From: Candidatus Woesearchaeota archaeon
GTDB taxonomy: Archaea; Nanobdellota; Nanobdellia; Woesearchaeales; WAPY01
Direction of reading: 5' to 3'
Assembly (NCBI GenBank): GCA_049700835.1
Contig: JBNAUL010000003.1
Coordinates: 9,775-73,774 of the forward strand
Length of the DNA stretch: 64,000 nt
Part shown: positions 7,337 through 49,830 of the stretch, piece by piece
Layout of the letters: every line of letters starts with the position of its first letter
How positions within the stretch are numbered: the stretch's first letter is position 1
The notes under the pieces: generated by a model
Databases searched by the model: none
What the model was told of the DNA's origin: nothing
The model's input: only the letters and a program-made list of their open reading frames with translations
Translations under genes and position numbers: made by a program

Positions 7337-7373
7337 ATTTTAATTTGTTTTGAACTTCCAACGGAGGTTTATT

Positions 7374-31960: not shown

Positions 31961-32225
31961 TAAAACCACCACCAAAGCAGTTTTTCTTTTGAATAACAAA
32001 AATTCCAATAACTTTATTAATTTTTTTATATGGTATCCCTACATTGTTTATAAATCTATTCCCAAACACCTGTTTTTGTTCTGCTCTTAAAAAAAATTCT
32101 GAAAGATATCTTAAAAATTCATCAGAATAAACCAATATTAACAATTAAAAAATAGTAAAATTTATAAAGAAATGTTCTATTTTATATTAGAACTAAAAGC
32201 AAACAAAAGAGCGGAGAGGATAAAA

Positions 32226-32453
32226 ATGGAAGATGTTTCTAAAACAACTTTGGCAATTTTGCTTATTTTGACAATAATTCTCTCAGTTATTGGAACTTGG
32301 ACAACAATCTCAACGCTGAATAAAGTAAGCTACAAAGAACAACAAAAAAACAACAATAACGGAATTGTTTCAATGACAATAGCAAAACCGAACGATGGAT
32401 TTAAAGAAGCAATGGTAAGCCTTTCTATTGTAAAGGAAGAAAAAGGAGGTTAA
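32226..32453 (+). CDS. Small membrane-anchored protein, N-terminus paralogous to next gene
   Basis: MEDVSKTTLAILLILTIILSVIGTW vs MAKEVSNRTIALLLVLALAISVFGTF; GGAGAGG RBS. Confidence 0.7.
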   Translation: MEDVSKTTLAILLILTIILSVIGTWTTISTLNKVSYKEQQKNNNNGIVSMTIAKPNDGFKEAMVSLSIVKEEKGG

Positions 32454-32456
32454 AAA

Positions 32457-33119
32457 ATGGCAAAAGAAGTTTCTAATAGAACAATAGCTTTGCTGTTGGT
32501 TTTGGCTTTGGCTATATCTGTTTTCGGAACATTTTTGAGCTTGCAAAGAATTTCAAGATTAGGAGTAACAGGATTTGCTTCAACAGGAATAACAAATCTT
32601 ACCATAGCAAGCACAAAATCAATAAATGTTCAAGTTGCAAATATTGACTTTGGCTCTGGCTATGCAACAGACGGAACAACATGCACGATGGAAAGCAATG
32701 CAACTGCTCCTGAAACAAACTGTAATGGTGCTAGTAGCGCAGGGATTGATTGGAACGAAAGGCCATTGAGCAGTTATGGGGGAAATCCATACTTTATTAT
32801 AAATAACACAGGAAACATAAATACAAATATAAGCGTTAATGCTTCTGATAATGCAACAACTTGGATTGGAAACTATGCAGGAGTTGGTGCTTGGATTGGA
32901 GGGCATGCAGCTACAGAAGCTCAGAATGCTTGCGGAACAATAAATACGACCTATCAAACTTTGGCAACAGGAGATCCTGTAGTGCTTTGCACCGGAACCG
33001 GTTTGAATTGGGTTGATGGCAACGATACTATATATGCTGCTGTAAAAGTAAGCATTCCATCAACAGTTCCTCCAGGAGAAAATAAGCACACAACAGTGAC
33101 ATTCCACACCCTGCCGTAA
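32457..33119 (+). CDS. Secreted beta-rich surface protein (fibre/pilin- or S-layer-like subunit)
   Basis: GGAGGT RBS; TM then VTGFA; IDFG, INNTGN, VSIPS motifs; T/N/G/A-rich; T-run terminator follows. Confidence 0.65.
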   Translation: MAKEVSNRTIALLLVLALAISVFGTFLSLQRISRLGVTGFASTGITNLTIASTKSINVQVANIDFGSGYATDGTTCTMESNATAPETNCNGASSAGIDWNERPLSSYGGNPYFIINNTGNINTNISVNASDNATTWIGNYAGVGAWIGGHAATEAQNACGTINTTYQTLATGDPVVLCTGTGLNWVDGNDTIYAAVKVSIPSTVPPGENKHTTVTFHTLP

Positions 33120-33348
33120 AAATTTTTTTGCTTTTTATTTTTTTCTTTTTCAGAGTTTCAGATAACATTTAAAGAAAAAGATTTTTGCTTTCGCAGTTTT
33201 AAGAACCAATAAAATTAAAATCTTAATATTAAAATAAATCTTAATATCAAAATTTTAATAATAAAAAAATATAATAAAATATGATAAAAATTTTATTAGA
33301 GAATGCTTTTAGCAAGATTTAAAAACAAACTCCACTTTATTTTAAAAT

Positions 33349-34572
33349 ATGAAAAGCAATAAAGAAAGTAAAAAAGGATTATTTTTAACAAAAAATAATT
33401 TCATCGGCTTTTTGTTTTTAATACTCTTCATTCTGGTTTTTTGCTGCAATGAAGTTTTTTCAATCGGATTAACGCCAGCAGACATTCTTGTTTACTATGA
33501 ACCTGATAAAGAGGTTGTATTAAATTATGCTGTGAGCAACACTCTTGATTTTGAAATAAACGCTTCCTTGTTTGTCACAGGAGAACTTTCCCAATATTTT
33601 GAACTCAGCGAAGTTAATGTTGTTTTAGGTCCTAAAGAAGCAAAATCATTCTATGTAAAATACAAGCTTCCTAAAGGTTTAAATCCAGGAACTTATGTTG
33701 TAAGATTAAACGCTTTGGAAATAAGAGCTCCTACAACTCAGGGAGTAGGAGCAAGGGCTTCTGTTATTGACAGGATTACAATAAGAGTTCCTGAGAAAGG
33801 GAAATACATTGAAACAAGTTTAAGGGTTGATGATGCTGAATTAAATAAGACAACAAAAGCATATGTTGATGTTTCAAATTTTGGAGAAGAAACAATAAAT
33901 TTCATGTTTGCTGAAATTGAATTCTTCACCTTAGAAAACAAAACAATTTCAAAAGTAAGAACAAAAACCTATTATTCATTAAAAACCTTTGAAACAGCAA
34001 CATTGGATGCAGATTTTGAAACAACAGGGCTTGAAAAAGCAACTTACAAAGCAAAGGCAATTGTTTATTATGATTCCATGTCAAAGGAGACAAACTTTGC
34101 TAATTTTAGGATTGGAAGCATAGAGATTAAGATAGTTGATTTCACAAGAAAGGCGTATCATGGGTTAATAAGCAAGTTCAACGTAACCATTGAAAACAGG
34201 TGGAACACTGAGGTGAATTTTGATTTGGAAGTTTTAATAAAAAAGGACAATAAGATTGTGCAAACAATAAGATTTAGCTCTGAATTATTGAAACCATTCG
34301 AAACAAAAACAATCAGTTCATTTTTGGATGCAACAAACCTTGAGTTAGGTTTGTATGATGTTGAGGCGAATGCTTACTACAACAACAATACAGAAACTCT
34401 TAAAGGAAATCTTGAGATTGTAGAGGTTCCAAAAGAGAAATTAGAGTCCTTCAATTATAAGTTCATAATTGCGATTTTATTGCTGCTCATTGTTCTCAAT
34501 ATTATTTGGTTATTCTTCTTAAAGAGAAAATCTTCAGCAAAGAATTCTATCCAAGAAGTAGAAAATAAGTAA
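33349..34572 (+). CDS. Secreted Ig-like domain protein with C-terminal membrane anchor
   Basis: Signal peptide, IGLTPA, LPKGLNPGTY, beta-rich repeats, C-terminal TM + KRK. Confidence 0.75.
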   Translation: MKSNKESKKGLFLTKNNFIGFLFLILFILVFCCNEVFSIGLTPADILVYYEPDKEVVLNYAVSNTLDFEINASLFVTGELSQYFELSEVNVVLGPKEAKSFYVKYKLPKGLNPGTYVVRLNALEIRAPTTQGVGARASVIDRITIRVPEKGKYIETSLRVDDAELNKTTKAYVDVSNFGEETINFMFAEIEFFTLENKTISKVRTKTYYSLKTFETATLDADFETTGLEKATYKAKAIVYYDSMSKETNFANFRIGSIEIKIVDFTRKAYHGLISKFNVTIENRWNTEVNFDLEVLIKKDNKIVQTIRFSSELLKPFETKTISSFLDATNLELGLYDVEANAYYNNNTETLKGNLEIVEVPKEKLESFNYKFIIAILLLLIVLNIIWLFFLKRKSSAKNSIQEVENK

Positions 34573-34604
34573 TAGAAGAAAGGGAAATAGAAGAAAGGTG
34601 CAAA

Positions 34605-35096
34605 ATGAGGTTTAACAAGAGAATGCGCTCTCTCTGTGATGGTTTCTCACTCTTTATTGAAAAAAACCAAAAATTTCTTATTGTATTATTTTCTATAATT
34701 GTGTTGTTTCTCCTTGTTTTTTTGATTGGCATGTGCGCTTTGCAAAAAAATTTGAACCAAAATTCATTTGAGAAGAGAGTTCCGATATCAATAATAGTAG
34801 GTTCTTCAAACACAATATTCATAAATGCGCAGACAGACGCTTTTTACCTTGGGGGAGGGCCTCCTGGTTCTACTATAACAGCGAATTTCAATATAACAAA
34901 CATCATTGGCAGGACTGTTCTGATAAAACTTTCTGCAGAAGGTTCTGTTAAGGATTGGATTTCATTCTCTGAAAATGATTTTATCTTGAAACCGAATGAA
35001 TTAAAAGAGATAGTGCTGATTGCAGAGATTCCAGAGAATGCTTTCAAAGGAACATACAACGATAGTTTTGTTGTTATAAAACACTATTTAAAATAA
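34605..35096 (+). CDS. Membrane-anchored Ig-like hypothetical protein
   Basis: N-terminal TM; WISFSENDFILKPNE...IPENAFKGTY resembles the first domain of 33349..34572. Confidence 0.65.
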   Translation: MRFNKRMRSLCDGFSLFIEKNQKFLIVLFSIIVLFLLVFLIGMCALQKNLNQNSFEKRVPISIIVGSSNTIFINAQTDAFYLGGGPPGSTITANFNITNIIGRTVLIKLSAEGSVKDWISFSENDFILKPNELKEIVLIAEIPENAFKGTYNDSFVVIKHYLK

Positions 35097-35241
35097 TTTT
35101 AGAGCGATTCTTTAATTCAGTTTAATGCAGTATTAAGTAAGCAGAAAAATCTTTGGTTATTTTTAAAGCTATTTATATATCAAAAATATATTAATATGAT
35201 ACATACATTTAAATTTATAATTATTAATTTATTACATAAAA

Positions 35242-35280
35242 AGAAAAGATTTATATATTAATATATCAAAATGATATATA
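35242..35280 (+). promoter_or_regulatory. BRE/TATA promoter with downstream inverted-repeat operator
   Basis: AGAAAAGA then TTTATATA (35250-35257); ATATATCA-AAA-TGATATAT (35261-35279) directly before ATG 35281. Confidence 0.55.
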
Positions 35281-35526
35281 ATGGATACTTTGCTTCATAT
35301 AAGAATAGGCAGGGAACTGAAGAAAAGGATTGATGAACTTGTTGAAGCAGGAGTTTTTTCTAATCAGGCAGAAGTTGTAAGGGAAGCTCTCAGAAGTTTG
35401 ATTTTAAAGTATGACAAGGAATTCCTCTCCTTGATAAAAAATCAGGAAAATAAAGTAAATAATGAAAATCATGCAAAAAACAAAAAGGGCAATAAAAGCG
35501 ATGAAAGGGGATTCAATAAAAAATGA
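35281..35526 (+). CDS. Ribbon-helix-helix (CopG/Arc/MetJ) transcription regulator
   Basis: LLHIRIGRELKKRIDELVEAGVFSNQAEVVREALR; stop overlaps next start (ATGA). Confidence 0.88.
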   Translation: MDTLLHIRIGRELKKRIDELVEAGVFSNQAEVVREALRSLILKYDKEFLSLIKNQENKVNNENHAKNKKGNKSDERGFNKK

Positions 35527-38102
35527 GGCTATCAAACAATTTAATGCTCTTTGCAATTTTAATTATAATAGTAATAAACATATTCAATATCTATGTTTAT
35601 TATACGATAGGCCTTCCAAAAATTTCAGGCAGGGTAACCTCTGGTTTGGTTCACCTCTGCATCGGAAAGCCGTCAATAATAAACTTCATTTATCCTAATG
35701 AGTGGGATGTTTTAAATGGAGTGATTAATGTGAGCGTAATAGCAACAAATCCTGACGGCCCGCACTATGTTCAATGGGTTTTGTTTAGTTATGGAATATC
35801 TGCTGTCAATGATTTTTGTCAGGATAACTACGATGGAGATTCGTTTTACAGCTGCATCTTAAACACATCACTGCTTCCTGAAGGAAACTGCAATTACTTT
35901 TTCATGGCAAGATGCCAAGGTCCTTGCTCTCAATCAGGAACAACGCACTATTACATTTCAATAAATAATATTGACGAGCCCCCTGTTTGGGATAATTTTA
36001 AAAACAACATCACAACGAACTTTTCAAAATTTTCTTCTTGGGGCAACATAAGCAATGCAGTTATAGGAATTCCAGGCAAGGTTGTTGTCAATTTTTCAGG
36101 GCAAACAATAAATTTTGACAGCGCAAACCTTGATTCTTATCTTTTAATAGGCCAAAACTATCTCAACATAAACATTGACGCTTTGAAGTGCCTGAGAAAA
36201 CCAGCAACAGTCACTTTCTATAATTTGAGCTTTGATGTTCCAAAAATCCTCAGGAACAATCAAGTATGCGTCTCTCCTTTGTGTTCCTTGGTTTCATACG
36301 ATTCAAATTCAGTAACCTTCAGTGCAATATACTTAAATGGAATTTATAATGTTACTGAAGGAGCAACTCTGAATTTAAAACTTTTAGACACATCTGATTT
36401 TAGAAAGGTCTATGTTAAAGAAGAGATGAGTTTCTATGCTAATCTAACAAACTCAGTTGGGAGAGTAATAAATTTCAGCGATGTTTATTGCGACATTATG
36501 ATAAATGAAACAAATCACTCTTATGCTGAGAGGATGAGTTTTAACCAAGAACTTCAGCTTTACGAGTTTAAGAAGACATTCTATAGAGCAGGAAACTTTA
36601 AATACGCTGTTGTTTGCAATGCTACAACCCACTATTATAACATAATTGAAAACTCATCTACATTCACAATAACAAACAGGCCCCCAATTCTTGTAAATTT
36701 AATTCCTAACCAAACATGGCTTGAAAATACAATGGTTTCAGGAATAGATTTGGATGATTATTTTGTAGACCCTGACGGGGATGTCTTAAATTACACGCAC
36801 TCTCCTGTACAAAACATACAGATAAACATATCCCCATCAAATGTCGTTACATTCATTCCTCAGAATTGGTGGTATGGAAACAGAACAGTCATCTTTTACG
36901 CATACGATCCTTACAGGGCTTCGAATGAGAGCAATGTTGTTTATCTAACAGTAATCCATGTTCCAAGACCGGAACTTGAGCAATCGCAGGTAGGTGGAGG
37001 AGGAGGCACAGGATCCTCAGAACAAAGCATGCTCTGCACGCCTAAGTGGGAATGCACAGAATTTGGGCTATGTTTGGCAACAGGGATAAGGGTTAGGAAG
37101 TGCATTGATGCTAACAACTGCCAAAACGAAAACCTTGGAAAGCCAAAGGAGTTCGAGTATTGCAATTACACTCCTACATGTTTTGATTTGCTTAAGAATG
37201 GGAATGAGGAATGGGTTGATTGTGGGGGTCCTTGCAAACCTTGTCCTTCCTGCTACAATCTAATTCAGGATCAGGGAGAGACAGGGGTTGATTGTGGGGG
37301 TCCTTGCAAACCTTGTCCTTCTTGCTCAAATGGAATTCAGGATTTTGGCGAAGAAGGAATTGATTGTGGAGTTGTTTGCAATAAGAGCTGCTCAAGACTT
37401 GAAATTCCAGGAAGGATTAAAAAGAGAATTTCAAACGCTGTTTTTTTATTAGCTCTCTCAATGATTGCAGTTGTTTCGTCAGGATACCTTGTTTTAAAAA
37501 AACTGAGGAAACAAAAAGAGGCTCTTATACCAGAGAAAGTGTTGTTAAAATCAGAACTTAATCTAAGAAGCAACGATTTAATCCTTGATTTCATAAGGGG
37601 AATATTCAATTGCAGCGAGATACAATCAATATTCAGAAAATTGATTTCAGAATCCCTTGAAATAAATTATGAATTCACAACTCAAGAACTTGAGAAGGAA
37701 ATGGCAGCGAGCGAGCTTAAACAGGATTTAAAGCAGAGAATTTTAAATTTTTCAAGCTTGGTTGAAAGCAAAATTTTCAGCAACGAAAAGATGGGAATTA
37801 AGGAATACGAAGCGTCTGTTAATGAGTTGAGAGGGCTTGTTGAAGATATTTTAACTCCCATTATTGCAGAGGAGATAAAATTTTTGGAAGAGGAAATGAA
37901 AAGAAGAAAGTTTGTTTCAGAGATAAAGAAATTGATTAGAGATATTCAAAGCGATTTCAAGGAGAACAAAACAGAGAGCGCTGAAGCGAAGTATTCAAAA
38001 TTAAAGCGTCTGTATTCAAAACTGCCTCTTAACTTGAAGAAAAAATACTATTCAATAATCATAAAGCTCTATGAACAATTGAACAGAAACAAAGAAAGCT
38101 AA
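35523..38102 (+). CDS. Adhesin-like surface protein: Ig-like domains, Gly linker, DCGGPC repeats, second TM, helical cytoplasmic tail
   Basis: N-terminal TM; NRPP...IDLDDYFVDPDGD; GGGGG; CTPKWECTEFGLC; three DCG repeats; TM then ~200-aa tail. Confidence 0.8.
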   Translation: MRLSNNLMLFAILIIIVINIFNIYVYYTIGLPKISGRVTSGLVHLCIGKPSIINFIYPNEWDVLNGVINVSVIATNPDGPHYVQWVLFSYGISAVNDFCQDNYDGDSFYSCILNTSLLPEGNCNYFFMARCQGPCSQSGTTHYYISINNIDEPPVWDNFKNNITTNFSKFSSWGNISNAVIGIPGKVVVNFSGQTINFDSANLDSYLLIGQNYLNINIDALKCLRKPATVTFYNLSFDVPKILRNNQVCVSPLCSLVSYDSNSVTFSAIYLNGIYNVTEGATLNLKLLDTSDFRKVYVKEEMSFYANLTNSVGRVINFSDVYCDIMINETNHSYAERMSFNQELQLYEFKKTFYRAGNFKYAVVCNATTHYYNIIENSSTFTITNRPPILVNLIPNQTWLENTMVSGIDLDDYFVDPDGDVLNYTHSPVQNIQINISPSNVVTFIPQNWWYGNRTVIFYAYDPYRASNESNVVYLTVIHVPRPELEQSQVGGGGGTGSSEQSMLCTPKWECTEFGLCLATGIRVRKCIDANNCQNENLGKPKEFEYCNYTPTCFDLLKNGNEEWVDCGGPCKPCPSCYNLIQDQGETGVDCGGPCKPCPSCSNGIQDFGEEGIDCGVVCNKSCSRLEIPGRIKKRISNAVFLLALSMIAVVSSGYLVLKKLRKQKEALIPEKVLLKSELNLRSNDLILDFIRGIFNCSEIQSIFRKLISESLEINYEFTTQELEKEMAASELKQDLKQRILNFSSLVESKIFSNEKMGIKEYEASVNELRGLVEDILTPIIAEEIKFLEEEMKRRKFVSEIKKLIRDIQSDFKENKTESAEAKYSKLKRLYSKLPLNLKKKYYSIIIKLYEQLNRNKES
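37213..37321 (+). repeat. Intragenic 37-bp exact direct repeat (72-bp period)
   Basis: GGGTTGATTGTGGGGGTCCTTGCAAACCTTGTCCTTC at 37213-37249 and 37285-37321. Confidence 0.9.
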
Positions 38103-38133
38103 AGAAAAGAATGATAAAAAAGAGGAAATTAAG

Positions 38134-42639: not shown

Positions 42640-42710
42640 GGAACCATTCACAGATATTTGATTCACAATCTTTGGAAAAATTTAAAAATCATCTTATTTT
42701 TCGTTTTTGC

Positions 42711-45062
42711 ATGTTTAAAAAGGAATTGAAAAGAGGGCAGATGCAATCTGTTTTTTTAATAGCTTTTGTGGCAATAGCATGTGCATTCCTCTTAATATTT
42801 GGCTACAATGCTTTAAAGAGTATTAAATCCTCAGGAAAAAAAGCAGAAACAGCAAATTTTTTCATGGAGCTGAAATCAGGAATTTCTGAAATTTCAGAAC
42901 AAGAAGACAGCGTAGAAAAATTTAATTTAAAAGCGCCTTCTGATATGCAGCTCGTTTGTTTTGTCAGCAACGCCTTGTTAGAAAATAAAGAACTTCTAGA
43001 GAATTATTGCAGCAATTTAAGAGATGATTTTTACTATGCGGAAAGGATAAGAATATGCTCTCTTTTAATGGAAGGAGTTAAAAAGAATGTTTTTTTGATT
43101 CCATCTTTTGAGAACTATTATGTTCAAGGGATAATTCTGGAGGACTTTATTTTGTGTGTTCCTACATACAACAATCACTTGCATCTTTTATTGTTGGGTT
43201 TAAAAGGAAACACTTACCTTAGAAAGGACAATTCATTCACAAAGATATGCACGCTTGATGAAGATTGCAATCAAGATGAATTCTGCAACGATAAAAACAT
43301 TTGCGTTTTAAAGTGCAAACGCAACGATGACTGCAAATCAGAAGAAAAGGTTTGCAATTTTAACACAGGCAGATGCGTTGATTGCATGTTTGATGAAGAT
43401 TGCGATTCAGATTTGTTCTGCAGTCAAAATAACACTTGCATTGAATGCTTTTTAGATAATGATTGCAATGAAGATGAAATTTGTTTAAATAACAAATGCG
43501 AAAAAATCAGGTGCGGTTATGCAGATATTAACTATTCCAACGGTGAAAAGTTTTGCATTTCAAACAGAGTTGTTGGAATTTGCGAAATAATAAATCATAG
43601 CCAAAGCATAAAGAACATTGATTGCGAAAATAACTTTTGCGTTAATGGCGCTTGCGAGAATACTTGTAATAATGGAATTTTAGAAGAGTGGGAGGATTGT
43701 GAGGGAGACAATTTACGGGATAAGGAATGTAAAGATTTAAAAGACCCTGTTTTTGGTTTTAATTATAACGGAGGAAAATTAAGTTGCTATGATAACTGTT
43801 CTTTTGATGTTTCCATGTGTGATTCCCCAATTCTATCGTACATGCTTAATTATCAGGACGAAAATTTATTATGTTTGTTGAATAAAAGCGTCAATAAAAA
43901 TTCGCAAGAATGTTTTTCTTTTGTTGGTAGATTAGCAAATTCTTTATGCAACGGAGACACACTTTATTGCGATTCTTCAATTAACTTTTTAAAAGAGATA
44001 TGCACAAAATCTTATGGAAAAAATAATTTTGATTTAGTTCTCTTTAAATTGCCTGCTGACAGCACGCAGCAATTTTATTATAATACTTATAATATTAAGG
44101 GAAATTTTGGAATTGATGATTTAGTGATTTCATCAAAAATAATTCCTAAACAAGATTACTCAGGAGAAGGTTTTGTATGCTATGATCTTTGCAATAAGGG
44201 CTATGATTTCTTGAAAATTTTTATATACAAAAATAACAAAAAAGGCAAAATACTGAAAGTAGAAAGATCTTCTTATCCATGCAGCATTTGCAGATTTTGG
44301 TTAAAGGATCATTCTTGTGAGAGCGCATTAACTTGCAGCAATCAAGTTTTTGGCTTGGTTTGTTCTGACAATAAAGTTTGCTGTAAGACAAATGCTCTAT
44401 GTCCTAACAATAAACTTTATTATTGTTCTGATGTATGCTCTTCGGGAGATTATGTTAATTATGAGTATTACTGCAGTGATGGAAAGAAGTGCTGTTATTC
44501 CGCAAGCAGCGATGAATGCCTAATGAAGAATGGATTTTATGTTTTTATCGACAAATGTGCTTCAAATTGTATAATTCAAACATCATCAGTTCCTTCAGGT
44601 TATGTTTGTTGCAAGGCGAATTGCTGCGGTAACAAAAATTGCGAGTTTGAAGAAGATGAACATAACTGCAAAGCAGACTGCAGTAGCAATTCATCGCCTA
44701 CACCAAATCCTACTTCAAACTCAACACCTAATCCAACACCTACTCAATCTCCTTCTCCAACTCCTACACCCAAAAATTGCGATCCAAATAAAAAGATAAC
44801 TTGTTCTTGGATGAGAGATCCTAAATGCGTGGAAGGAAAATGCGTTTACAGAGGAAAAGCAATAGTAGTAACTTGCGATGAGTGCAACATTGATGAATGC
44901 TGCCAGCATAATGAACCCTTGGTCTGCGATCCTCCTTGCGAAGTTTTAGATTGTTCAAAAGATTGCACATGCACTTGCGATCCACCTTGCAAATATCCAT
45001 ATAGTTGTGATACTGGTTCAGGAGAGTGCACTTATGCACCATCTGGTTACATATGCCCTTAA
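42711..45062 (+). CDS. Class III signal peptide protein with long Cys-rich region and Pro/Thr linker
   Basis: KRG|QMQSVFLIAFVAIACAFLLIFGY; VCFV motif; CxxDxDC repeats; PTPNPT linker. Confidence 0.75.
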   Translation: MFKKELKRGQMQSVFLIAFVAIACAFLLIFGYNALKSIKSSGKKAETANFFMELKSGISEISEQEDSVEKFNLKAPSDMQLVCFVSNALLENKELLENYCSNLRDDFYYAERIRICSLLMEGVKKNVFLIPSFENYYVQGIILEDFILCVPTYNNHLHLLLLGLKGNTYLRKDNSFTKICTLDEDCNQDEFCNDKNICVLKCKRNDDCKSEEKVCNFNTGRCVDCMFDEDCDSDLFCSQNNTCIECFLDNDCNEDEICLNNKCEKIRCGYADINYSNGEKFCISNRVVGICEIINHSQSIKNIDCENNFCVNGACENTCNNGILEEWEDCEGDNLRDKECKDLKDPVFGFNYNGGKLSCYDNCSFDVSMCDSPILSYMLNYQDENLLCLLNKSVNKNSQECFSFVGRLANSLCNGDTLYCDSSINFLKEICTKSYGKNNFDLVLFKLPADSTQQFYYNTYNIKGNFGIDDLVISSKIIPKQDYSGEGFVCYDLCNKGYDFLKIFIYKNNKKGKILKVERSSYPCSICRFWLKDHSCESALTCSNQVFGLVCSDNKVCCKTNALCPNNKLYYCSDVCSSGDYVNYEYYCSDGKKCCYSASSDECLMKNGFYVFIDKCASNCIIQTSSVPSGYVCCKANCCGNKNCEFEEDEHNCKADCSSNSSPTPNPTSNSTPNPTPTQSPSPTPTPKNCDPNKKITCSWMRDPKCVEGKCVYRGKAIVVTCDECNIDECCQHNEPLVCDPPCEVLDCSKDCTCTCDPPCKYPYSCDTGSGECTYAPSGYICP

Positions 45063-45119
45063 TATTTTTTAAAATTAAAAGAGAAGCAGTAAAAATCTTT
45101 TATTTTATCTTTATTTTAT

Positions 45120-45857
45120 CTATTTCATCTTTTCAATAATTTTGTTATAAAAATCAACTATTTCCTCTCTAACGCTCTTCTTTTCCTCTATGCTAAGTTT
45201 ATTGTAAATTTCTCTTATCAATTCATACTTCTTTTGGGCTTCTTCCAAGTTGAAATTTAAGAGTTCGTTTCCTTCTAACAGGAGTTCGTAAATACTTTCC
45301 AATTCCTCTTTTGGTTCTTTGATTTTCTTTTTTTCAATCTGCTCTTTTCTAATTCCTGTATTTTCTTCTCTTTTTTCCTTTCCAACGATTACAGAATTTT
45401 TTCTTTTAGCAAAATTATTTTTTGTTCCTTTGACCCTCTTTATGATTGGATGAAACACAGAAATTTTAAATCCTTTCTGCTCATTGCTGTTTTCAATCTG
45501 ATTTTTTGCTTTTAGAATGTATCTCTTGAATTCTCTTGCGATTTTTTTTATTCTCTCATGCTCAATTTTTTTGTTTGGGAATTTCTTGTATTCATATTCT
45601 TCTGCGACCTTCAATAAATCAAGAATTTTCTGCTTTTCTTTTGAATCTATCCTTCTGTTGGCAAGCTCCTTTTCAAGCTCTTCGTAGGTAAAGGAATACC
45701 TTATGTTGTATTTCGAAGCAAAATAATTCTTTATTATGTGGAATAGCTGTATGCTTGAGTCCTCAACATTAGTAATTTTCAGCCTTCTTAGAAATCTTTC
45801 AAGCACATTCAAAGTATGATTTTTCAATACAACTTCCTTGTCAACCTCTTTTTTCAT
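45120..45857 (-). CDS. Soluble helical protein similar to cytoplasmic tail of 35523..38102
   Basis: IRYSFTYEELEKEL and AQKKYELIREIYNKL motifs; divergent from moxR. Confidence 0.7.
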   Translation of the reverse strand: MKKEVDKEVVLKNHTLNVLERFLRRLKITNVEDSSIQLFHIIKNYFASKYNIRYSFTYEELEKELANRRIDSKEKQKILDLLKVAEEYEYKKFPNKKIEHERIKKIAREFKRYILKAKNQIENSNEQKGFKISVFHPIIKRVKGTKNNFAKRKNSVIVGKEKREENTGIRKEQIEKKKIKEPKEELESIYELLLEGNELLNFNLEEAQKKYELIREIYNKLSIEEKKSVREEIVDFYNKIIEKMK

Positions 45858-45990
45858 ATCAATATTATCATTTGAATAAACTATTTAAATTTAACTGAGT
45901 TTTTAAAAAGAGATTGCCATCTTAGCAATTTTTTTTACTCTTATAAAGTGAAACTATAAAAATTTAAACTTTTTTTTATCTTTAAAACTT

Positions 45991-46971
45991 ATGGACAATA
46001 TTTCAAAACAGGTTGTTGCATGCAAGAAAGATATAGAATTGATAAAAAAAGAAGTTTCAAAGGTCGTCATAGGTCAGCAGGAGCTTGTTGATTCAATAAT
46101 AAGGGCAATAATCTCTGACGGGCATGTTCTGCTTGAAGGAGTTCCAGGTCTTGCAAAAACTCTTGTTGTAAGGACAATCGCCTCTGTTTTTGGTTGTGAT
46201 TTCAAAAGAATACAATTCACTCCTGATCTGCTTCCAGCAGACCTGATTGGAATAACAACCTATGACAAGGAGAAGGGTTTTTATGTTGTAAAAGGACCAA
46301 TCTTTACAAACTTTGTTTTGGCTGACGAGATAAACAGGGCACCGCCAAAGGTTCAGTCCGCATTGCTTGAATGCATGCAGGAAAGGCAGGCAACGATTAG
46401 TAGGGAATCCTTCCAAATCCAATCACCTTTTTTTGTTCTTGCAACTCAAAATCCATTGGAGTCCTTAGGAACATATCCGCTGCCAGAAGCACAGATTGAC
46501 AGGTTTTTATTCAAGTTGAAGGTTGGTTATCCTAATCTTGAAGAGGAAAAATTGATTTTGGAAAACAACATTACCATAAGAAAGTTTGAGGCTTATAACC
46601 TGAAACCTGTTTATTCATCTGAAAAACTGATAAAATTGCAGGAAACAGTAAAACAGATTTATTTGGACGATAAAATAAAGAAGTACATAGTATCTATAGT
46701 TGATGCTACAAGGCACCCAAGCGATTATGGGATAAAGCTTGGCAAGTATATAGAGTGGGGTGCTTCCCCAAGAGCATCTATAGGGCTTTATATTGCTTCA
46801 AAAGCAGAGGCTCTAATGCAGGGAAAGACATTTGTTGTTCCGCAGTTTGTAAAGAACATCGCATACGATGTTTTAAGGCACAGAATAATAGTTAATTATG
46901 AAGGGCAATCAGAAAATATAACTTCTGAGGACATTATCAAAGAAGTGCTAAACAGGGTTCCAATACCTTAA
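45991..46971 (+). CDS. moxR: MoxR-family AAA+ ATPase
   Basis: GHVLLEGVPGLAKT, RIQFTPDLLPAD, LADEINRAPPKVQSALLE, GTYPLPEAQIDRF, GASPRAS. Confidence 0.96.
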   Translation: MDNISKQVVACKKDIELIKKEVSKVVIGQQELVDSIIRAIISDGHVLLEGVPGLAKTLVVRTIASVFGCDFKRIQFTPDLLPADLIGITTYDKEKGFYVVKGPIFTNFVLADEINRAPPKVQSALLECMQERQATISRESFQIQSPFFVLATQNPLESLGTYPLPEAQIDRFLFKLKVGYPNLEEEKLILENNITIRKFEAYNLKPVYSSEKLIKLQETVKQIYLDDKIKKYIVSIVDATRHPSDYGIKLGKYIEWGASPRASIGLYIASKAEALMQGKTFVVPQFVKNIAYDVLRHRIIVNYEGQSENITSEDIIKEVLNRVPIP

Positions 46972-47087
46972 TCAAAAATTTAGAAAAAGAACTTAATAAA
47001 ATTTTAGAATTTAATAAGGAATTTGATGATAAATTTGATGAAAAATTCAATGAATAATAGATCATAAAATTCTTTTTAGGTGTAAAA

Positions 47088-47978
47088 ATGTATGAATTCA
47101 ATGTCAATCTAAAACCGCTTTTAAAGCAAATGGAGATTTTTTCAAAAAAGGATATTGCAGGAGGAGGTTTTGCAGGTGGCTATACAAGCGTTTTCAAGGG
47201 AAGGGGGTTAGAGTTTGAGGGCTACAGAGAGTATACTCCTAATGATGACGCGAGCTTGATTGACTGGAAAGCAAGTTTGAGGAGTAATGAACTTCTGATA
47301 AAAGAATTTGCAGAGGAAAGAAATGTAAATGTTGTATTTGCTTTTGATGTAAGCTCTTCGATGTCTTATGCTTCTACAAAAAAACTTAAGAATGAGTATG
47401 CCATTGAATTGATAGCAAGCATTGCATTTTCAATCTTGAGGGCAGGAGATAGCATTGGACTGCTGATGTTTTCTGACAGAGTGAAGTATTATCTTAAACC
47501 AGCTCTTGGGCATAAACAATACTATGTAATAATAAAAGCTCTTTTGAATCCGAAGCTTTACGAGGGAGATTTTGAATTATCAAAAGCGCTTTCGTTTTTA
47601 ACAACAAACCTTAAAAAGGGTTCTATTGTTATTTTGGTTTCTGATTTTATTGGGTTAAAGTCAGGTTGGCAGAATGTTTTGGATGTTGCTGTTAAAAAGT
47701 TTGATTTCATTGGAATAATGGTTCGGGATCCTGTTGACAACGAACTTCCAGTAAAAGTTGGACCTGTTGTCATTTCAGACCCTTTTTCAGACGATGAATT
47801 ATTAGTAGATCCTGATTTCATAAAACAGAAGTATGACAACTACACAAGGAACCAGAGAGCGGCTGTTAAAGAGGAGTTTTTAAAAAGGAGATGTGGCTTC
47901 ATAGAATTGAGAACAGACAAACCTTTTGAAGATGAGATACTAAAATTTTTTAAGCAGAGGGCAAAACAATGGAGATAA
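47088..47978 (+). CDS. DUF58 domain protein
   Basis: FKGRGLEFEGYREYTPNDDASLIDWKAS, FAEER, DVSSSM, SDF. Confidence 0.93.
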   Translation: MYEFNVNLKPLLKQMEIFSKKDIAGGGFAGGYTSVFKGRGLEFEGYREYTPNDDASLIDWKASLRSNELLIKEFAEERNVNVVFAFDVSSSMSYASTKKLKNEYAIELIASIAFSILRAGDSIGLLMFSDRVKYYLKPALGHKQYYVIIKALLNPKLYEGDFELSKALSFLTTNLKKGSIVILVSDFIGLKSGWQNVLDVAVKKFDFIGIMVRDPVDNELPVKVGPVVISDPFSDDELLVDPDFIKQKYDNYTRNQRAAVKEEFLKRRCGFIELRTDKPFEDEILKFFKQRAKQWR

Positions 47979-48922
47979 TATTTTTAAGACCAGAATACCT
48001 TTGGCTTTTGATTTCGCTTCCATTATTGGCAGCAACCCATTTCTTTGTTTTAAGATATTTGAAGAGAAGGGCTTTAAAGTTTGCCAATTTTGAAGCAATA
48101 AGAAGGGTTGTCGGCCCAGAAGGAACTTCAAAGAATGTGAATTTCTTATCAAAAAATCTTGGGCTTTTGATATTGAGAATGCTTGCCTTGTTTTTTGTAA
48201 TAACAGGATTGGCAACTCCTGTTGTTTATTATTCTGCTAAGACATCGTCCTCTGTTTTTGTTTTGGCTATAGACACTTCTTCAAGCATGCTTGCAGACGA
48301 TTTTACTCCTTCAAGATTAGAATCTGCAAAGCATTCTGCTCTGAAGTTTTTAGAGAAAATGCCATCAAAGACAAGAGCAGGGCTTATCTCTTTTTCAGGT
48401 TCCTCTTTTGTTGAAAACGACCTAACAGATGACAAACTTCTGCTGAGCTCAAAAATAAAAAATCTAGGTGTAAGTTCAATAGGAGGAACAGATATAGGGA
48501 GCGCATTAATAACCTCAACAAACCTTCTCTTTAAAGAAAACTCCTCAAAGATGATCATTTTAATAACAGATGGGCAAAGCAATGTCGGCGTTGAACCTTT
48601 AAAAGGAGCAGAGTATGCCAAGTCCAAAAATGTTGTTGTTCACACAATAGGAATTGGAACTAAATCAGGAGGTTCTTTTTTGCTTCCAGAAGCTGTTTCG
48701 ACCCTTGACGAGGAAACCCTGAAGAAGATTTCGCAAATGACTTATGGAGAGTATTTTAGGGCTGAAAATCCAAAGTCGTTAGAACGGGCTTATGAGACAA
48801 TAGCAGAGCACTCTGTTCAAAGAATATCAAGAAATATAAGTTTTGAACTACTGCTGATTGCGATTGTATTGTTGTTCATTGAATGGTCTCTAATGAATAC
48901 AAGATACAGAACTCTGCCGTAA
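47969..48922 (+). CDS. BatA-like von Willebrand factor A membrane protein
   Basis: FLRPEYLWLL N-terminus, MIDAS DTSSSM, GGTDIG, ITDGQ, LDEETL; C-terminal TM. Confidence 0.93.
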   Translation: MEIIFLRPEYLWLLISLPLLAATHFFVLRYLKRRALKFANFEAIRRVVGPEGTSKNVNFLSKNLGLLILRMLALFFVITGLATPVVYYSAKTSSSVFVLAIDTSSSMLADDFTPSRLESAKHSALKFLEKMPSKTRAGLISFSGSSFVENDLTDDKLLLSSKIKNLGVSSIGGTDIGSALITSTNLLFKENSSKMIILITDGQSNVGVEPLKGAEYAKSKNVVVHTIGIGTKSGGSFLLPEAVSTLDEETLKKISQMTYGEYFRAENPKSLERAYETIAEHSVQRISRNISFELLLIAIVLLFIEWSLMNTRYRTLP

Positions 48923-49755: not shown

Positions 49756-49830
49756 TAGCGGGGAGTGGATTTGAACCACCGACCTGTGGGTTATGAGCCC
49801 ACCGGGCACTCCTGACTGCCCTACCCCGCT
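49756..49830 (-). tRNA. tRNA-Met(CAT), initiator
   Basis: AGCGGGG...CCCCGCT-A with A1:U72; anticodon arm GTGGG-CTCATAA-CCCAC (three consecutive G:C); GGTTCAAATCC T-arm; no encoded CCA. Confidence 0.95.

What the first reader, a model, noticed from the sequence alone, without database searches (positions are those of the whole stretch)
32226..48922. Candidate adhesin/fibre assembly system coupled to a MoxR-DUF58-vWA chaperone module
Seen: co-oriented run of two paralogous small subunits, two Ig-like membrane proteins, an RHH regulator, 859-aa and 1501-aa adhesins and a prepilin-like Cys-rich protein. Next come a soluble protein resembling the adhesin tail and moxR-DUF58-batA-like genes. Known: MoxR AAA+ ATPases work with vWA partners to assemble or remodel complexes, and substrates of the Bat-type module are largely unknown. 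Inference: an undescribed DPANN surface attachment apparatus, with 32457..33119 as major subunit and MoxR as assembly/remodelling motor.
Basis: partly seen in the sequence, partly recalled or inferred. Interest (0 to 1): 0.72.

Follow-up and report, generated by a model that had tools for sequence, protein, structure and literature searches.

The report
Strand-exchange pilus gene cassette in DPANN archaea
This stretch of a Woesearchaeota genome most likely encodes a thin surface fibre whose subunits lock together by lending each other a beta-strand, which would be the first such system proposed for DPANN archaea; the neighbouring MoxR ATPase genes are probably a separate unit.

Summary
The core is not the whole 16.7 kb. 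It is a four-gene cassette, B-C-D-E (32226..35096), found in every one of 15 related loci from Woesearchaeota/Nanobdellota genomes.

- **C (220 aa, no Pfam family):** it models as a beta-sandwich with a free N-terminal strand. A three-copy complex prediction places that strand in the neighbour's groove (score 0.55, best control 0.00). This is donor-strand complementation, as in chaperone-usher pili, TasA fibres, archaeal threads and cannulae.
- **B:** it has the same leader and strand as C but no body, so it is a candidate base anchor or terminator.
- **D and E:** these are membrane-anchored Ig-like proteins and candidate chaperones. D resembles the membrane-anchored chaperones of the Elr/WxL and Pam pili only weakly.
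- **G (859 aa):** it shares the B/C N-terminal module.
- **Tip adhesins:** large proteins ending in a C-like domain occur elsewhere, but not in this window.
- **MoxR-DUF58-BatA:** these genes are real but form their own unit, behind an opposite-strand gene. MoxR lies within 10 kb downstream of C in 1 of 10 relatives with enough sequence. In that relative it follows G-H-J, as here.

Verdict: the fibre system is supported. MoxR as its motor is not shown.

The parts
28811..32008 (-). Neighbour, not core: oligosaccharyltransferase AglB/STT3 fused to a C-terminal FKBP prolyl isomerase domain. It is transcribed divergently from B-C and is the likely N-glycosylation enzyme for the sequon-rich fibre and adhesin proteins.
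   Evidence: STT3 2.8e-30 and FKBP_C 4.3e-20 at residues 962-1062. The same gene lies beside the cassette in L001. A separate 183-aa ORF matching only that C-terminal FKBP part (phmmer 2e-9, no family scan run) lies next to B in L014. C has 9 N-x-S/T sequons and H has 96.
32226..32453 (+). B: 75-aa protein with an N-terminal TM anchor, a linker and two short amphipathic beta-strands (G.V.L.I..P and A.V.L.I). It has no (T/S)GxA motif and no globular body. Proposed membrane anchor or terminator that lends a strand to C.
   Evidence: Family alignment A5. Present beside C in 15 of 15 loci by family HMM, and in 14 of 15 by phmmer. N-terminal module shared with C: hhalign probability 97.9%, E 4.6e-13.
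32457..33119 (+). C: 220-aa major-subunit candidate. In order it has a conserved leader (xSN[KR]T plus a ~23-residue hydrophobic helix), a conserved TGxA site (G39, A41), a donor strand at residues ~42-55 and a beta-sandwich with two conserved Cys (C159, C178).
   Evidence: 623 relatives at E<=1e-3. No Pfam or NCBIfam family. AF2 pLDDT 86.0. Weak Foldseek matches, mostly donor-strand pilins. Three-copy prediction: score 0.55 against a best control of 0.00, with residues 42-53 and 55 docking on 56-70 and 196-218 of the next copy.
33120..33150 (+). Oligo-T tract directly after C, followed by a 229-nt AT-rich spacer. This may be the end of a B-C transcript.
   Evidence: Read from the sequence. 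That T-runs act as archaeal terminators is recalled knowledge and was not tested here.
33349..34572 (+). D: 407-aa membrane protein with a signal peptide, three Ig-like domains, a C-terminal TM helix (370-406) and a short basic tail. Candidate membrane-anchored chaperone or assembly platform.
   Evidence: AF2 pLDDT 86.5. Foldseek: tandem Ig proteins of the ciliary central apparatus (3.9e-14; I read them as ASH/PapD-like from memory), WxLIP 9i1y_A 4.7e-10, WxLIP bound to WxL 9i25_C 1.3e-9, RbmA 5.4e-9. The middle domain of relatives hits WxLIP_HBD in 9 of 19 at E<=1, with 1 above the curated cut-off. Beside C in 14 of 14 loci.
34605..35096 (+). E: 163-aa protein with an N-terminal TM helix and one Ig-like domain related to D's first domain. 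Second candidate assembly factor.
   Evidence: BLASTP against D gives E 5e-6. Follows D in 12 of 12 loci where sequence continues.
35281..35526 (+). F: ribbon-helix-helix regulator. It overlaps the start of G by 4 nt and travels with G/H rather than with B-E.
   Evidence: RHH_1 9.1e-7. F-like ORFs lie directly upstream of G-like genes in L001, L009 and L012.
35523..38102 (+). G: 859-aa surface protein. In order it has the same N-terminal module as B/C (SNN leader, SGRV(T) site, strand GLVHLCIGKP), a ~600-aa ectodomain with Cys-rich DCGGPCKPCPSC repeats, a TM at ~636-659 and a ~200-aa helical cytoplasmic tail. Candidate fibre-base anchor or adhesin joined to the fibre by its N-terminal strand.
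   Evidence: hhalign of G N-termini against C N-termini: probability 94.3%, E 9.6e-8. Against B: 94.1%, E 1.3e-7. TM scan. G-like genes lie near the cassette in L001, L009, L012, L013, L014 and L015.
38134..42639 (+). H: 1501-aa Ig/cadherin-like repeat adhesin with a C-terminal TM and 96 N-glycosylation sequons. It has no B/C-type leader and no C-like domain.
   Evidence: Big_9 4.8e-19, He_PIG 6.6e-11, Cadherin_4 4.1e-6. Shares a repeat with G (E 2e-13). Sequons. No match to the C HMM.
42672..45062 (+). I: 796-aa Cys-rich secreted or membrane protein (82 Cys). It is lineage-specific and not part of the conserved set.
   Evidence: No family match. Absent from the close relative L001, where H is followed directly by J. 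BLASTP against the ORFs of the 15 loci gave one weak row, E 0.30.
45120..45857 (-). J: 245-aa soluble, Lys/Glu-rich protein on the opposite strand. It shares a ~60-aa motif with the cytoplasmic tails of G-like proteins.
   Evidence: Against G's tail, E 6e-5. Against the tails of the L012 and L009 G-like proteins, 4e-5 to 6e-5. J-like ORFs on the opposite strand follow H in L001, L009 and L015.
45991..46971 (+). MoxR-type AAA+ ATPase, first gene of a separate three-gene unit.
   Evidence: AAA_3 7.4e-60 and AAA_lid_2 8e-17. Separated from J's start by a 133-nt divergent spacer.
47088..47978 (+). DUF58 protein (vWA-like), with no TM segment.
   Evidence: DUF58 7.1e-48. TM scan.
47969..48922 (+). 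BatA-like membrane protein: an N-terminal double-TM domain, a vWA domain and a C-terminal TM. It overlaps the DUF58 gene by 10 nt.
   Evidence: VWA 6.3e-22 and BatA 2.6e-9. NCBIfam VWA_BatA 1.4e-30, below its curated cut-off. TM scan.

Best explanation
B-C-D-E (32226..35096) is a conserved cassette of Woesearchaeota/Nanobdellota. I propose that it builds a thin, N-glycosylated surface fibre by donor-strand complementation.

Proposed steps:
1. C is exported by its unusual leader and cut at the conserved TGxA site (inferred).
2. C is glycosylated by the adjacent AglB (inferred).
3. C polymerises head to tail. The N-terminal strand (residues ~42-55) of one subunit fills a groove lined by residues 56-70 and 196-218 of the next (predicted).
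4. D (three Ig-like domains, C-terminal TM) and E (one Ig-like domain, N-terminal TM) hold and hand over subunits at the membrane. This is the role of the membrane-anchored chaperones of the Elr/WxL and Pam pili of bacteria that lack an outer membrane. The role is inferred from architecture and strict co-occurrence only.
5. B has the leader, TM and donor-type strand but no cleavage motif and no body. It would plug the last groove and tie the fibre to the membrane (inferred).
6. G carries the same N-terminal module on a large ectodomain with its own TM and cytoplasmic tail. It could join the fibre base in the same way (inferred).
7. In other genomes, large lectin-type proteins end in a C-like domain and would sit at the tip.

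H and I are further surface proteins. MoxR-DUF58-BatA is a separate transcription unit that the fibre does not need.
For: **Family and fold of C**
- 623 representatives at E<=1e-3, nearly all ~200-250 aa among the 150 listed.
- The nearest Atlas clusters are Nanobdellota (0.98).
- The AF2 model has pLDDT 86.0 with an unstructured segment at residues 35-55 before the sandwich.
- 25 of the 46 listed Foldseek rows are donor-strand fibre subunits or their assembly complexes: FimA, PapA, Csu, CupE, TasA, Saci_0406 thread, CanA. The best are the Hyper2 tube 9bab (probability 0.94, TMt 0.61) and cannulae 9h8b (0.92, 0.56).

**Self-association of C**
- Three copies of residues 42-220 scored 0.59, 0.00 and 0.55 in three runs (median 0.55). 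The best of 3 controls scored 0.00.
- The tool's calibration: 20 of 30 solved pairs and 1 of 23 single chains reach this mark.
- Partner pLDDT was at least 80 and the runs shared at least 15% of contacts.
- The contacts are the N-terminal strand against the first and last strands of the neighbour.

**Conservation of the cassette in 15 loci fetched by a C motif**
- B is beside C in 15 of 15, D in 14 of 14 and E in 12 of 12.

**Shared N-terminal module**
- B against C: probability 97.9%, E 4.6e-13. G against C: 94.3%, 9.6e-8. G against B: 94.1%, 1.3e-7.

**Tip-adhesin-like fusions**
- A C-like domain sits at the extreme C-terminus of L010:679-2886 (735 aa, Laminin_G_3; E 7.6e-13), right beside a D-C-C-B-D cluster.
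- The same is true of P0156 (947 aa) and P0157 (1946 aa).

**D**
- Three Ig-like domains plus a C-terminal TM.
- Foldseek hits to WxLIP alone and bound to WxL (4.7e-10, 1.3e-9).
- WxLIP_HBD is hit by 9 of 19 family members at E<=1.
- A Bacillota WxLIP cluster appears at 0.89 with 199 shared features.

**Precedents**
- Membrane-anchored chaperones with a C-terminal TM drive donor-strand exchange in the Elr pilus (preprint 10.64898/2026.10.17.759780; abstract and sections 7, 8 and 12 read) and in the Pam pilus (PMC13278184; abstract and passages).
Against: - No filament has been seen, and everything about assembly is prediction.
- Every Foldseek match of C has E>=0.026, with none at E<=0.001.
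- One of the three complex runs scored 0.00. The job had three copies and my own alignment, unlike the tool's calibration.
- C has no sequence-level link to any known pilin. At E<=0.1, 0 of 85 members hit TasA/Peptidase_M73, WxL or fimbrial families. The profile search of PDB sequences gave only one chance-level hit, E 0.89.
- D's likeness to WxLIP is not specific:
  - The top Foldseek hits are generic tandem Ig proteins, and TM-scores to WxLIP are 0.24-0.40.
  - CARDB is hit about as often as WxLIP_HBD, 7 against 9 of 19. Only 1 of 19 members passes the WxLIP_HBD cut-off, and the window's own D does not match it.
  - The D profile did not find WxLIP among PDB sequences at E<=10.
- D-C, E-C, B-C and G-C binding were not tested.
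- Signal-peptide cleavage is inferred from a conserved G-x-A about 10 residues after a long hydrophobic helix. If it is not cut, C stays membrane-bound.
- The window itself holds no protein with a C-terminal C-like domain.
Confidence: 0.6

Rival explanations
1. One reading: the whole stretch from 32226 to 48922 is one apparatus, and MoxR-DUF58-BatA is the ATP-driven assembly or remodelling motor of the fibre and adhesins.
For: - The MoxR genes lie next to the cluster in the window.
- In L015, a very divergent relative (60% GC against 32.5%; C 30% and MoxR 55.5% identical), the order B-C-D-E-G-H-J(-)-MoxR is the same.
- So MoxR follows G-H-J in 2 of 2 cases where sequence runs that far (the window and L015). 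It is absent from all 7 loci that have at least 8 kb downstream and no G-H pair.
- J and the cytoplasmic tail of G share a motif. These are cytoplasmic parts that an AAA+/vWA system could reach.
Against: - MoxR lies within 10 kb downstream of C in 1 of 10 relatives with at least 8 kb visible there. No DUF58 or BatA homologue was found in any of the 15 loci, although L015 ends inside MoxR.
- In L002, L003 and L005 the cassette sits among housekeeping genes such as TruD, adenylate kinase and LPG_synthase.
- In the window the MoxR unit is separated from the run by the minus-strand J and a divergent spacer.
- MoxR and DUF58 have no TM segment, whereas strand exchange would happen outside the cell.
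- The donor-strand systems I read about are described without an ATPase.
- Two loci are too few to tell linkage from inherited gene order.
Confidence: 0.12
2. C is not a fibre subunit. It is a membrane-tethered or envelope-associated glycoprotein, and B, D, E, G and H are further coat components encoded beside the glycosylation genes. The predicted strand swap would then be only a dimer or lattice contact.
For: - The hydrophobic helix of C is long (about 23 residues) and cleavage is unproven.
- B, D, E, G and H all carry TM anchors.
- The cluster adjoins AglB and glycosyltransferase genes.
- D's Foldseek list includes an S-layer protein (7ptp_A, TMq 0.34).
- Fold matches of C to pilins are weak, and CBM and capsid jelly-rolls score similarly.
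Against: - The predicted contact is the head-to-tail strand insertion typical of fibres, with controls at 0.00.
- G39 and A41 are invariant in the 11 closest sequences. G39 alone is kept in at least 90% of 85. That fits a processing site.
- B keeps the strand but lacks both the site and the body, which makes sense for a fibre base.
- Large lectin-type proteins ending in a C-like domain mirror tip adhesins.
Confidence: 0.2
3. The region is just an island of unrelated surface-protein genes, and the order B-C-D-E reflects shared ancestry of close relatives rather than joint function.
For: - All 15 loci come from one phylum-level group.
- They were found with a narrow motif, so the sample is small and related.
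Against: - The loci range from 22% to 60% GC, and C identities fall to 25-37%.
- The flanks differ completely between loci, yet B, C, D and E stay adjacent in every readable case.
- B, C and G share a specialised N-terminal module.
Confidence: 0.06

Closest known systems
Elr/WxL pilus of Enterococcus faecalis and other Bacillota (preprint 10.64898/2026.10.17.759780; abstract and sections 7, 8 and 12 read)
   Same: [quoted passage not shown]
- Ig-like accessory protein held in the membrane by a C-terminal TM helix.
- A small protein with a donor strand but no groove, which ends the fibre.
- Large adhesins that carry the pilin-type domain at their extreme C-terminus.
- No outer membrane and no usher.
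- Some relatives of D hit the DUF3324 (WxLIP_HBD) model, and D's model matches the WxLIP structures 9i1y and 9i25.
   Different: - C is not a WxL domain: 0 of 85 members hit PF13731 at E<=0.1, and the Atlas lead is only 0.80.
- No DUF916 match at E<=0.01 in 0 of 18 D relatives.
- D has three Ig-like domains rather than two.
- There is no LPxTG or sortase anchoring. B is anchored by an N-terminal TM instead.
- There is an extra single-domain factor, E.
- The host is an archaeon, while the preprint reports the system only in Bacillota.
Pam pilus of CPR bacteria (PMC13278184; abstract and passages read)
   Same: - An ultrasmall, host-dependent type of organism without an outer membrane.
- A donor-strand pilus.
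- Chaperones PamC/PamD with a C-terminal TM.
- A terminator/anchor, PamR, with a C-terminal TM plus an N-terminal strand. G has this layout.
- D's Foldseek list includes RbmA, the fold assigned to PamR.
- A CPR (Uhriibacteriota) cluster is among D's nearest Atlas clusters (0.95).
   Different: - Pam pilins have two domains joined by a linker strand, while C has one domain with an N-terminal strand.
- No sequence relation was tested, because I held no Pam sequences.
- The preprint reports Pam pilins as exclusive to CPR.
Archaeal donor-strand filaments: Saci_0406 threads (PMC9715654), AbpA bundling pili (PMC9245690) and CanA/CanX cannulae (10.1101/2024.12.30.630787); passages read
   Same: - Archaeal, Sec-exported, N-glycosylated beta-sandwich subunits joined by an N-terminal donor strand.
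- A small co-transcribed partner proposed as a cap (Saci_0405), which parallels B.
- C's best fold matches are cannula-type subunits.
   Different: - Those filaments are described without a chaperone, and their homologues lie mainly in Thermoproteota.
- C shows no profile-level similarity to them.
- C always travels with two Ig-like membrane proteins.
Chaperone-usher pili of Gram-negative bacteria (Fim, Pap, Csu)
   Same: - Donor-strand complementation.
- Tip adhesins with a C-terminal pilin domain.
- An Ig-like accessory protein.
- Many of C's fold matches are Fim, Pap or Csu subunits.
   Different: - No usher and no outer membrane.
- No Pfam match to PapD or fimbrial families.
- The candidate chaperones are membrane-anchored.
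Bat-type MoxR-DUF58-vWA(BatA) module (general knowledge, recalled)
   Same: AAA_3 MoxR, DUF58 and a BatA_N+VWA membrane protein lie in that order, with the last two genes overlapping.
   Different: - Only one BatA-like gene, and no BatB-E seen.
- It lies next to G-H-J here and in L015. That neighbourhood is not part of what I recall for Bat operons.

Membership tests
Donor-strand-complemented fibre subunits (functional class) | Beta-sandwich body preceded by a free N-terminal strand | tested here: met
   The AF2 model has pLDDT 86.0. Residues 35-55 carry no secondary structure and lie ahead of the sandwich.
Donor-strand-complemented fibre subunits (functional class) | The N-terminal strand of one subunit fills a groove of the next | tested here: met
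   This is a prediction only. The median score was 0.55 (runs 0.59, 0.00, 0.55) against a best control of 0.00. Residues 42-53 and 55 dock on 56-70 and 196-218.
Donor-strand-complemented fibre subunits (functional class) | A filament made of the protein is observed | not testable with these tools
   Needs electron microscopy or biochemistry.
TasA superfamily (TasA/Peptidase_M73, AbpA, CanX, thread subunit) | Sequence or profile similarity to a member | tested here: not met
   0 of 85 C-family members hit such a Pfam family at E<=0.1. The profile search against PDB sequences gave no such hit at E<=10.
TasA superfamily (TasA/Peptidase_M73, AbpA, CanX, thread subunit) | Same jelly-roll fold | tested here: inconclusive
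   TasA fibre 8aur E 0.037, TMq 0.37. Hyper2 9bab probability 0.94, TMt 0.61. Cannulae 9h8b 0.92, 0.56. No match reached E<=0.001.
WxL/Elr pilus | The pilin carries a WxL domain (PF13731) | tested here: not met
   0 of 85 at E<=0.1. The Atlas shows a WxL cluster only at 0.80, which is a lead.
WxL/Elr pilus | Chaperone with DUF916 (WxLIP_PGBD) plus DUF3324 (WxLIP_HBD) | tested here: inconclusive
   WxLIP_HBD is hit by 9 of 19 at E<=1 and by 6 of 18 at E<=0.01. Only 1 of 19 is above the cut-off (L013, 31.1 against 28.9 bits). WxLIP_PGBD is hit by 0 of 18 at E<=0.01. CARDB hits are about as frequent. Foldseek to WxLIP gives 4.7e-10 but TM 0.24-0.40.
WxL/Elr pilus | The chaperone is held in the membrane by a C-terminal TM helix | tested here: met
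   D has a helix at 370-406 and a hydrophobic segment at 365-395. The feature is conserved in alignment A4.
WxL/Elr pilus | LPxTG protein and sortase anchor the base | tested here: not met
   By eye, B and its 14 relatives show no LPxTG-like motif. B has an N-terminal TM instead.
WxL/Elr pilus | Tip adhesin with the pilin domain at its C-terminus | tested here: inconclusive
   Found in three relatives: L010's 735-aa protein, P0156 and P0157. Not found in this window.
Chaperone-usher pili | Outer-membrane usher and PapD-family periplasmic chaperone | tested here: not met
   No usher or PapD family appears among the 14 cluster proteins at E<=0.1. None appears among the 25 listed of 47 families hit by D relatives.
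MoxR-DUF58-vWA (Bat-type) module | AAA_3 MoxR ATPase, DUF58 protein and BatA_N+VWA membrane protein encoded together | tested here: met
   AAA_3 7.4e-60, DUF58 7.1e-48, VWA 6.3e-22 with BatA 2.6e-9. The genes are adjacent and on the same strand, and the last two overlap.
Archaeal type IV pilin (claimed for protein I) | Class III signal peptide processed by a prepilin peptidase | not tested
   Only a KRGQ motif before the hydrophobic stretch, read by eye. No pilin family matched in Pfam or NCBIfam.

The most novel reading that the evidence does not exclude
The block B-C-D-E-F-G-H-(I)-J-MoxR-DUF58-BatA is one integrated attachment organelle.

The donor-strand fibre would be tied to the cell through the N-terminal strand of G. 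G's cytoplasmic tail, and its free paralogue J, would be clients of the MoxR/vWA system. A cytoplasmic AAA+ chaperone would then control an extracellular, chaperone-assisted strand-exchange fibre from inside the cell.

This would also give the Bat-type MoxR module its first defined substrate.
Probability: 0.1. Interest if true: 0.9.

Novelty: new variant of a known kind. Interest (0 to 1): 0.7.

Why it matters
**Attachment in DPANN archaea.** These archaea live attached to other cells, yet how Woesearchaeota attach is unknown. My full-text searches found no paper describing a donor-strand fibre in DPANN archaea:
- Woesearchaeota + pili + adhesin.
- DPANN + donor strand.
- DPANN + chaperone-usher.
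- Six terms on Woesearchaeota/Nanobdellota and TasA, pilin or threads.
- A term search of a Nanobdellota genome preprint gave 0 occurrences.

**A possible third lineage.** Two 2026 preprints describe strand-exchange pili with membrane-anchored chaperones. They report them as confined to Bacillota and to CPR bacteria. An archaeal counterpart built from unrelated-looking sequence families would show one of two things. Either this solution arose, or spread, in a third lineage without an outer membrane. Or archaeal donor-strand filaments are not all chaperone-free.

**Practical value.** The finding gives a function to a large unannotated family (623 cluster representatives). It also offers a short, testable parts list: C alone, C with D, and C with B.

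Tried and rejected
- **Bacterial promoter/terminator scan.** It found 67 promoter-like sites against 64.7 in shuffles and 6 terminator-like sites against 9.6. This is uninformative for an archaeon.
- **Sequence-level placement of C and D.** Pfam and NCBIfam gave nothing for C. PDB sequence searches with profiles gave only chance-level hits: C E 0.89, D best E 0.0047 to uncharacterised Ig proteins.
- **Word-indexed homologue searches with D.** They found 5 and 13 proteins, all unannotated, with no bridge to WxLIP.
- **Locus search with the 85- and 11-sequence C alignments.** It was not possible because no stretch was conserved enough. A 5-sequence alignment worked but used one narrow motif, so only 15 loci were obtained.
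- **H and I as fibre subunits.** They have no C-like domain and no B/C-type leader.
- **B as a full paralogue of C.** Rejected: only the first ~55 residues are shared.
- **The transglutaminase-like gene (53632..55647, minus) as part of the MoxR unit.** It lies 4.7 kb away on the other strand, so I did not pursue it.
- **Not tested.** D-C, E-C, B-C and G-C complexes were not run, because the single complex job went to C x3.
- **Pfam scan of flanking ORFs.** It covered 83 of 102. The 19 left out were L003 and L005 ORFs syntenic with L002, plus one 89-aa fragment. All ORFs of at least 50 aa were still screened with the window's own proteins.
- **Collections and supplements not available.** The Elr and Pam preprints may list archaeal hits there that I could not see.

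Full report
**Source and gene content.** The window comes from a Candidatus Woesearchaeota metagenome-assembled genome. Protein D is 100% identical to an NCBI entry from such a genome, on a 115-kb contig. The window has 32.5% GC.

On the plus strand, in order:
- B (32226..32453)
- C (32457..33119)
- D (33349..34572)
- E (34605..35096)
- the RHH protein F (35281..35526)
- G (35523..38102)
- H (38134..42639)
- I (42672..45062)

J follows on the minus strand (45120..45857). Then, on the plus strand again, come MoxR (AAA_3, 7.4e-60), DUF58 (7.1e-48) and a BatA_N+VWA protein, ending at 48922. Upstream and divergent lies an AglB/STT3-FKBP fusion with glycosyltransferase genes behind it.

**The conserved unit.** C has no Pfam or NCBIfam family. 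An exhaustive search nevertheless found 623 cluster representatives at E<=1e-3, and nearly all of the 150 listed are 200-250 aa. The ESM Atlas places its nearest clusters in Nanobdellota.

A motif from the C leader retrieved 15 loci from species-representative genomes. Their GC content ranges from 22% to 60%. Six carry a depositor's 'Methanosarcinales' label, which I could not check.

I screened all ORFs of at least 50 aa in these loci with the window's proteins and with family HMMs. The results:
- B is beside C in 15 of 15.
- D is beside C in 14 of 14 (L009 ends inside C).
- E follows D in 12 of 12 (L009, L010 and L011 end too early).

The flanks differ completely between loci. L002, L003 and L005 have RelA/SpoT, TruD, adenylate kinase and LPG synthase; others have other genes (83 of 102 flanking ORFs scanned). 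B-C-D-E is therefore a cassette, and the window holds only one copy.

**What C looks like.** With an 85-sequence alignment the AF2 model reaches pLDDT 86.0. In order it shows:
- a helix at residues 7-34
- an unstructured stretch at 35-55
- a beta-sandwich

The family consensus has these features:
- a conserved leader (E-I-S-N-K-T-L-A) followed by a hydrophobic helix
- a TGxA motif, with G39 and A41 invariant in the closest 11 sequences
- an alternating strand (G-x-V/A-x-L-x-I)
- invariant N117, G119 and C178, and a nearly invariant C159

Foldseek against the PDB gave no match at E<=0.001. Even so, 25 of the 46 listed rows are donor-strand fibre subunits or their assembly complexes:
- type 1, P, Csu, CupE and CFA/I pili
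- the TasA fibre
- the Saci_0406 thread
- CanA
- the Hyper2 tube (probability 0.94, TMt 0.61)
- native cannulae (0.92, 0.56)

The remaining rows are carbohydrate-binding modules, capsid jelly-rolls and glycosidase domains.

- The three runs scored 0.59, 0.00 and 0.55 (median 0.55). The best of 3 controls scored 0.00.
- The tool's calibration says 20 of 30 solved pairs and 1 of 23 single chains reach this mark. It warns that three copies and my own alignment differ from that calibration.
- Partner pLDDT was at least 80, and the runs shared at least 15% of contacts.
- In the best run, residues 42-53 and 55 of one copy touch 56-58, 61-70 and 196-218 of the next. Residues 44-46 lie against 213-216, and 46-52 against 196-206.

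This is the geometry of donor-strand complementation. It is a model's confidence, not a measurement.

**B, G and the shared N-terminal module.** B relatives keep the leader and TM helix but lack TGxA. They then have only two short amphipathic strands (G.V.L.I..P and A.V.L.I).

Profile-profile comparison aligns B with the first ~60 residues of C in register (probability 97.9%, E 4.6e-13).

The N-termini of G-like proteins have the same layout: an M-R-x-S-N-N leader, an S-G-x-A/V site and a strand x-V-x-L-C-I-x-x-P. They align to C (94.3%, 9.6e-8) and to B (94.1%, 1.3e-7). Because the module includes a TM helix, these scores may be somewhat inflated.

G continues with:
- a ~600-aa ectodomain
- a TM segment at ~636-659
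- a ~200-aa cytoplasmic tail

A strand-only protein can fill a groove but offers none of its own. In the Elr and Pam models such proteins (ElrB, PamR) end and anchor the fibre at its base. By analogy I assign B, and possibly G, that role. This was not tested.

**Tip adhesins.** The mature-C HMM finds a C-like domain at the very end of a 735-aa Laminin_G_3 protein (L010:679-2886, residues 621-733, E 7.6e-13). That protein lies immediately upstream of a D-C-C-B-D cluster.

A search for longer relatives found two more:
- P0156: 947 aa, Laminin_G_3, with the domain at 831-943.
- P0157: 1946 aa, with the domain at 1802-1941.

This matches the layout of FimH-type and WxL tip adhesins. G, H and I in the window have no such domain.

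**D and E.** D models as three Ig-like domains between a signal peptide and a C-terminal TM helix (pLDDT 86.5).
- **Foldseek.** The best hits are tandem Ig-like chains of the ciliary central apparatus (3.9e-14), which I read from memory as ASH/PapD-like. The list also includes WxLIP of E. faecium alone (9i1y_A, 4.7e-10, TMt 0.36), WxLIP bound to a WxL protein (9i25_C, 1.3e-9, TMt 0.40), CfaB and RbmA.
- **Pfam on relatives.** The middle domain hits WxLIP_HBD/DUF3324 in 9 of 19 at E<=1 and in 6 of 18 at E<=0.01. One passes the curated cut-off. CARDB is hit about as often. The window's own D does not hit WxLIP_HBD.
- **ESM Atlas.** It lists a Bacillota WxLIP cluster at 0.89 and a CPR cluster at 0.95.

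E is a single-domain relative of D's first domain, with an N-terminal TM.

These data fit a membrane-anchored chaperone or platform like ElrE or PamC/PamD. They would also fit any tandem-Ig membrane protein. The strongest argument is the invariable adjacency to C.

**MoxR.**
- In the window the MoxR unit starts 133 nt from J's start and on the other strand. MoxR and DUF58 are 116 nt apart, and DUF58 and BatA overlap by 10 nt.
- Ten relatives have at least 8 kb visible downstream of C. Only L015 shows MoxR there (55.5% identity), and none shows DUF58 or BatA, though L015 ends inside MoxR.
- Against simple dismissal: L015 has the same order, B-C-D-E-G-H, a J-like ORF on the opposite strand, then MoxR. 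This holds despite 60% GC and only 22-31% identity in B to H.
- J-like ORFs also follow H in L001 and L009, where the sequence then stops.
- So MoxR is not part of the fibre cassette, but it may be linked to the G-H-J module. Two observations cannot decide this.

**Comparison and novelty.** In mechanism the cassette is closest to the Elr/WxL pilus and the Pam pilus, both described in 2026 preprints. It is also close to archaeal threads, bundling pili and cannulae. It fails the sequence tests for membership in each of these families (see the membership table).

My literature searches found no description of such a system in DPANN archaea. Supplements of the preprints could not be read. I rate it a new variant of a known kind.

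Noticed in passing
window 28811..32008 (-); L014:9088-9639: The oligosaccharyltransferase AglB/STT3 is fused to a C-terminal FKBP prolyl isomerase domain (residues 962-1062) and is divergent from B-C. In L014 a separate 183-aa ORF matching only that C-terminal part (phmmer 2e-9; no family scan run on it) lies directly upstream of B. A folding catalyst outside the membrane may therefore accompany the cassette.
   Followed up: partly
window 45120..45857 (-) and G residues ~696-859; L009:1-996, L015:18874-19473 (-): J is a free-standing relative of the cytoplasmic tail of G-like proteins, sharing a motif around F-T-Y-E-E-L. J-like genes sit on the opposite strand after H in three relatives. Their function is unknown.
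   Followed up: partly
window 32457..32530, 32226..32300, 35523..35600: The leaders of B, C and G share a conserved polar n-region (x-S-N-K/N-x) ahead of the hydrophobic helix. This is unusual for an ordinary Sec signal peptide and hints at a dedicated recognition or processing factor. Rhomboid protease genes lie near the cassette in L013 (9903-10616, -) and L014 (8108-8986).
   Followed up: no
window ~37200..37400 (G residues ~560-625) and 42672..45062 (I): G holds three tandem Cys-rich modules (G-x-D-C-G-G-P-C-K-P-C-P-S-C). I has 82 cysteines in 796 residues. No family matches either.
   Followed up: no
L002:17728-18873, L003:11139-13782, L005:20240-20686; L002:6990-8882: Contigs that otherwise look archaeal (RIO1 kinase, deoxyhypusine synthase, TruD) also carry GGDEF diguanylate cyclase, HDOD and RelA/SpoT genes. 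As far as I recall, these are rare in archaea.
   Followed up: no
window 53632..55647 (-): A transglutaminase-like protein of 672 aa (Transglut_core 6.8e-27) lies 4.7 kb beyond the MoxR unit on the other strand. From memory, MoxR-DUF58 genes often neighbour transglutaminase-like genes in bacteria.
   Followed up: no
window 7350..13550 (+): A further giant ORF of 2066 aa with only a weak CBM_4_9 match (1.7e-4), followed by small ORFs with no family match. This may be another surface-protein locus.
   Followed up: no
window 49756..49830 (-): One tRNA gene (Rfam 61 bits), the only Rfam match in the window.
   Followed up: no
protein D; Atlas cluster at rank 15: A cluster of D-like proteins from CPR bacteria (Ca. 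Uhriibacteriota) scores 0.95 by language-model features. This hints that CPR bacteria and DPANN archaea share this protein type.
   Followed up: no
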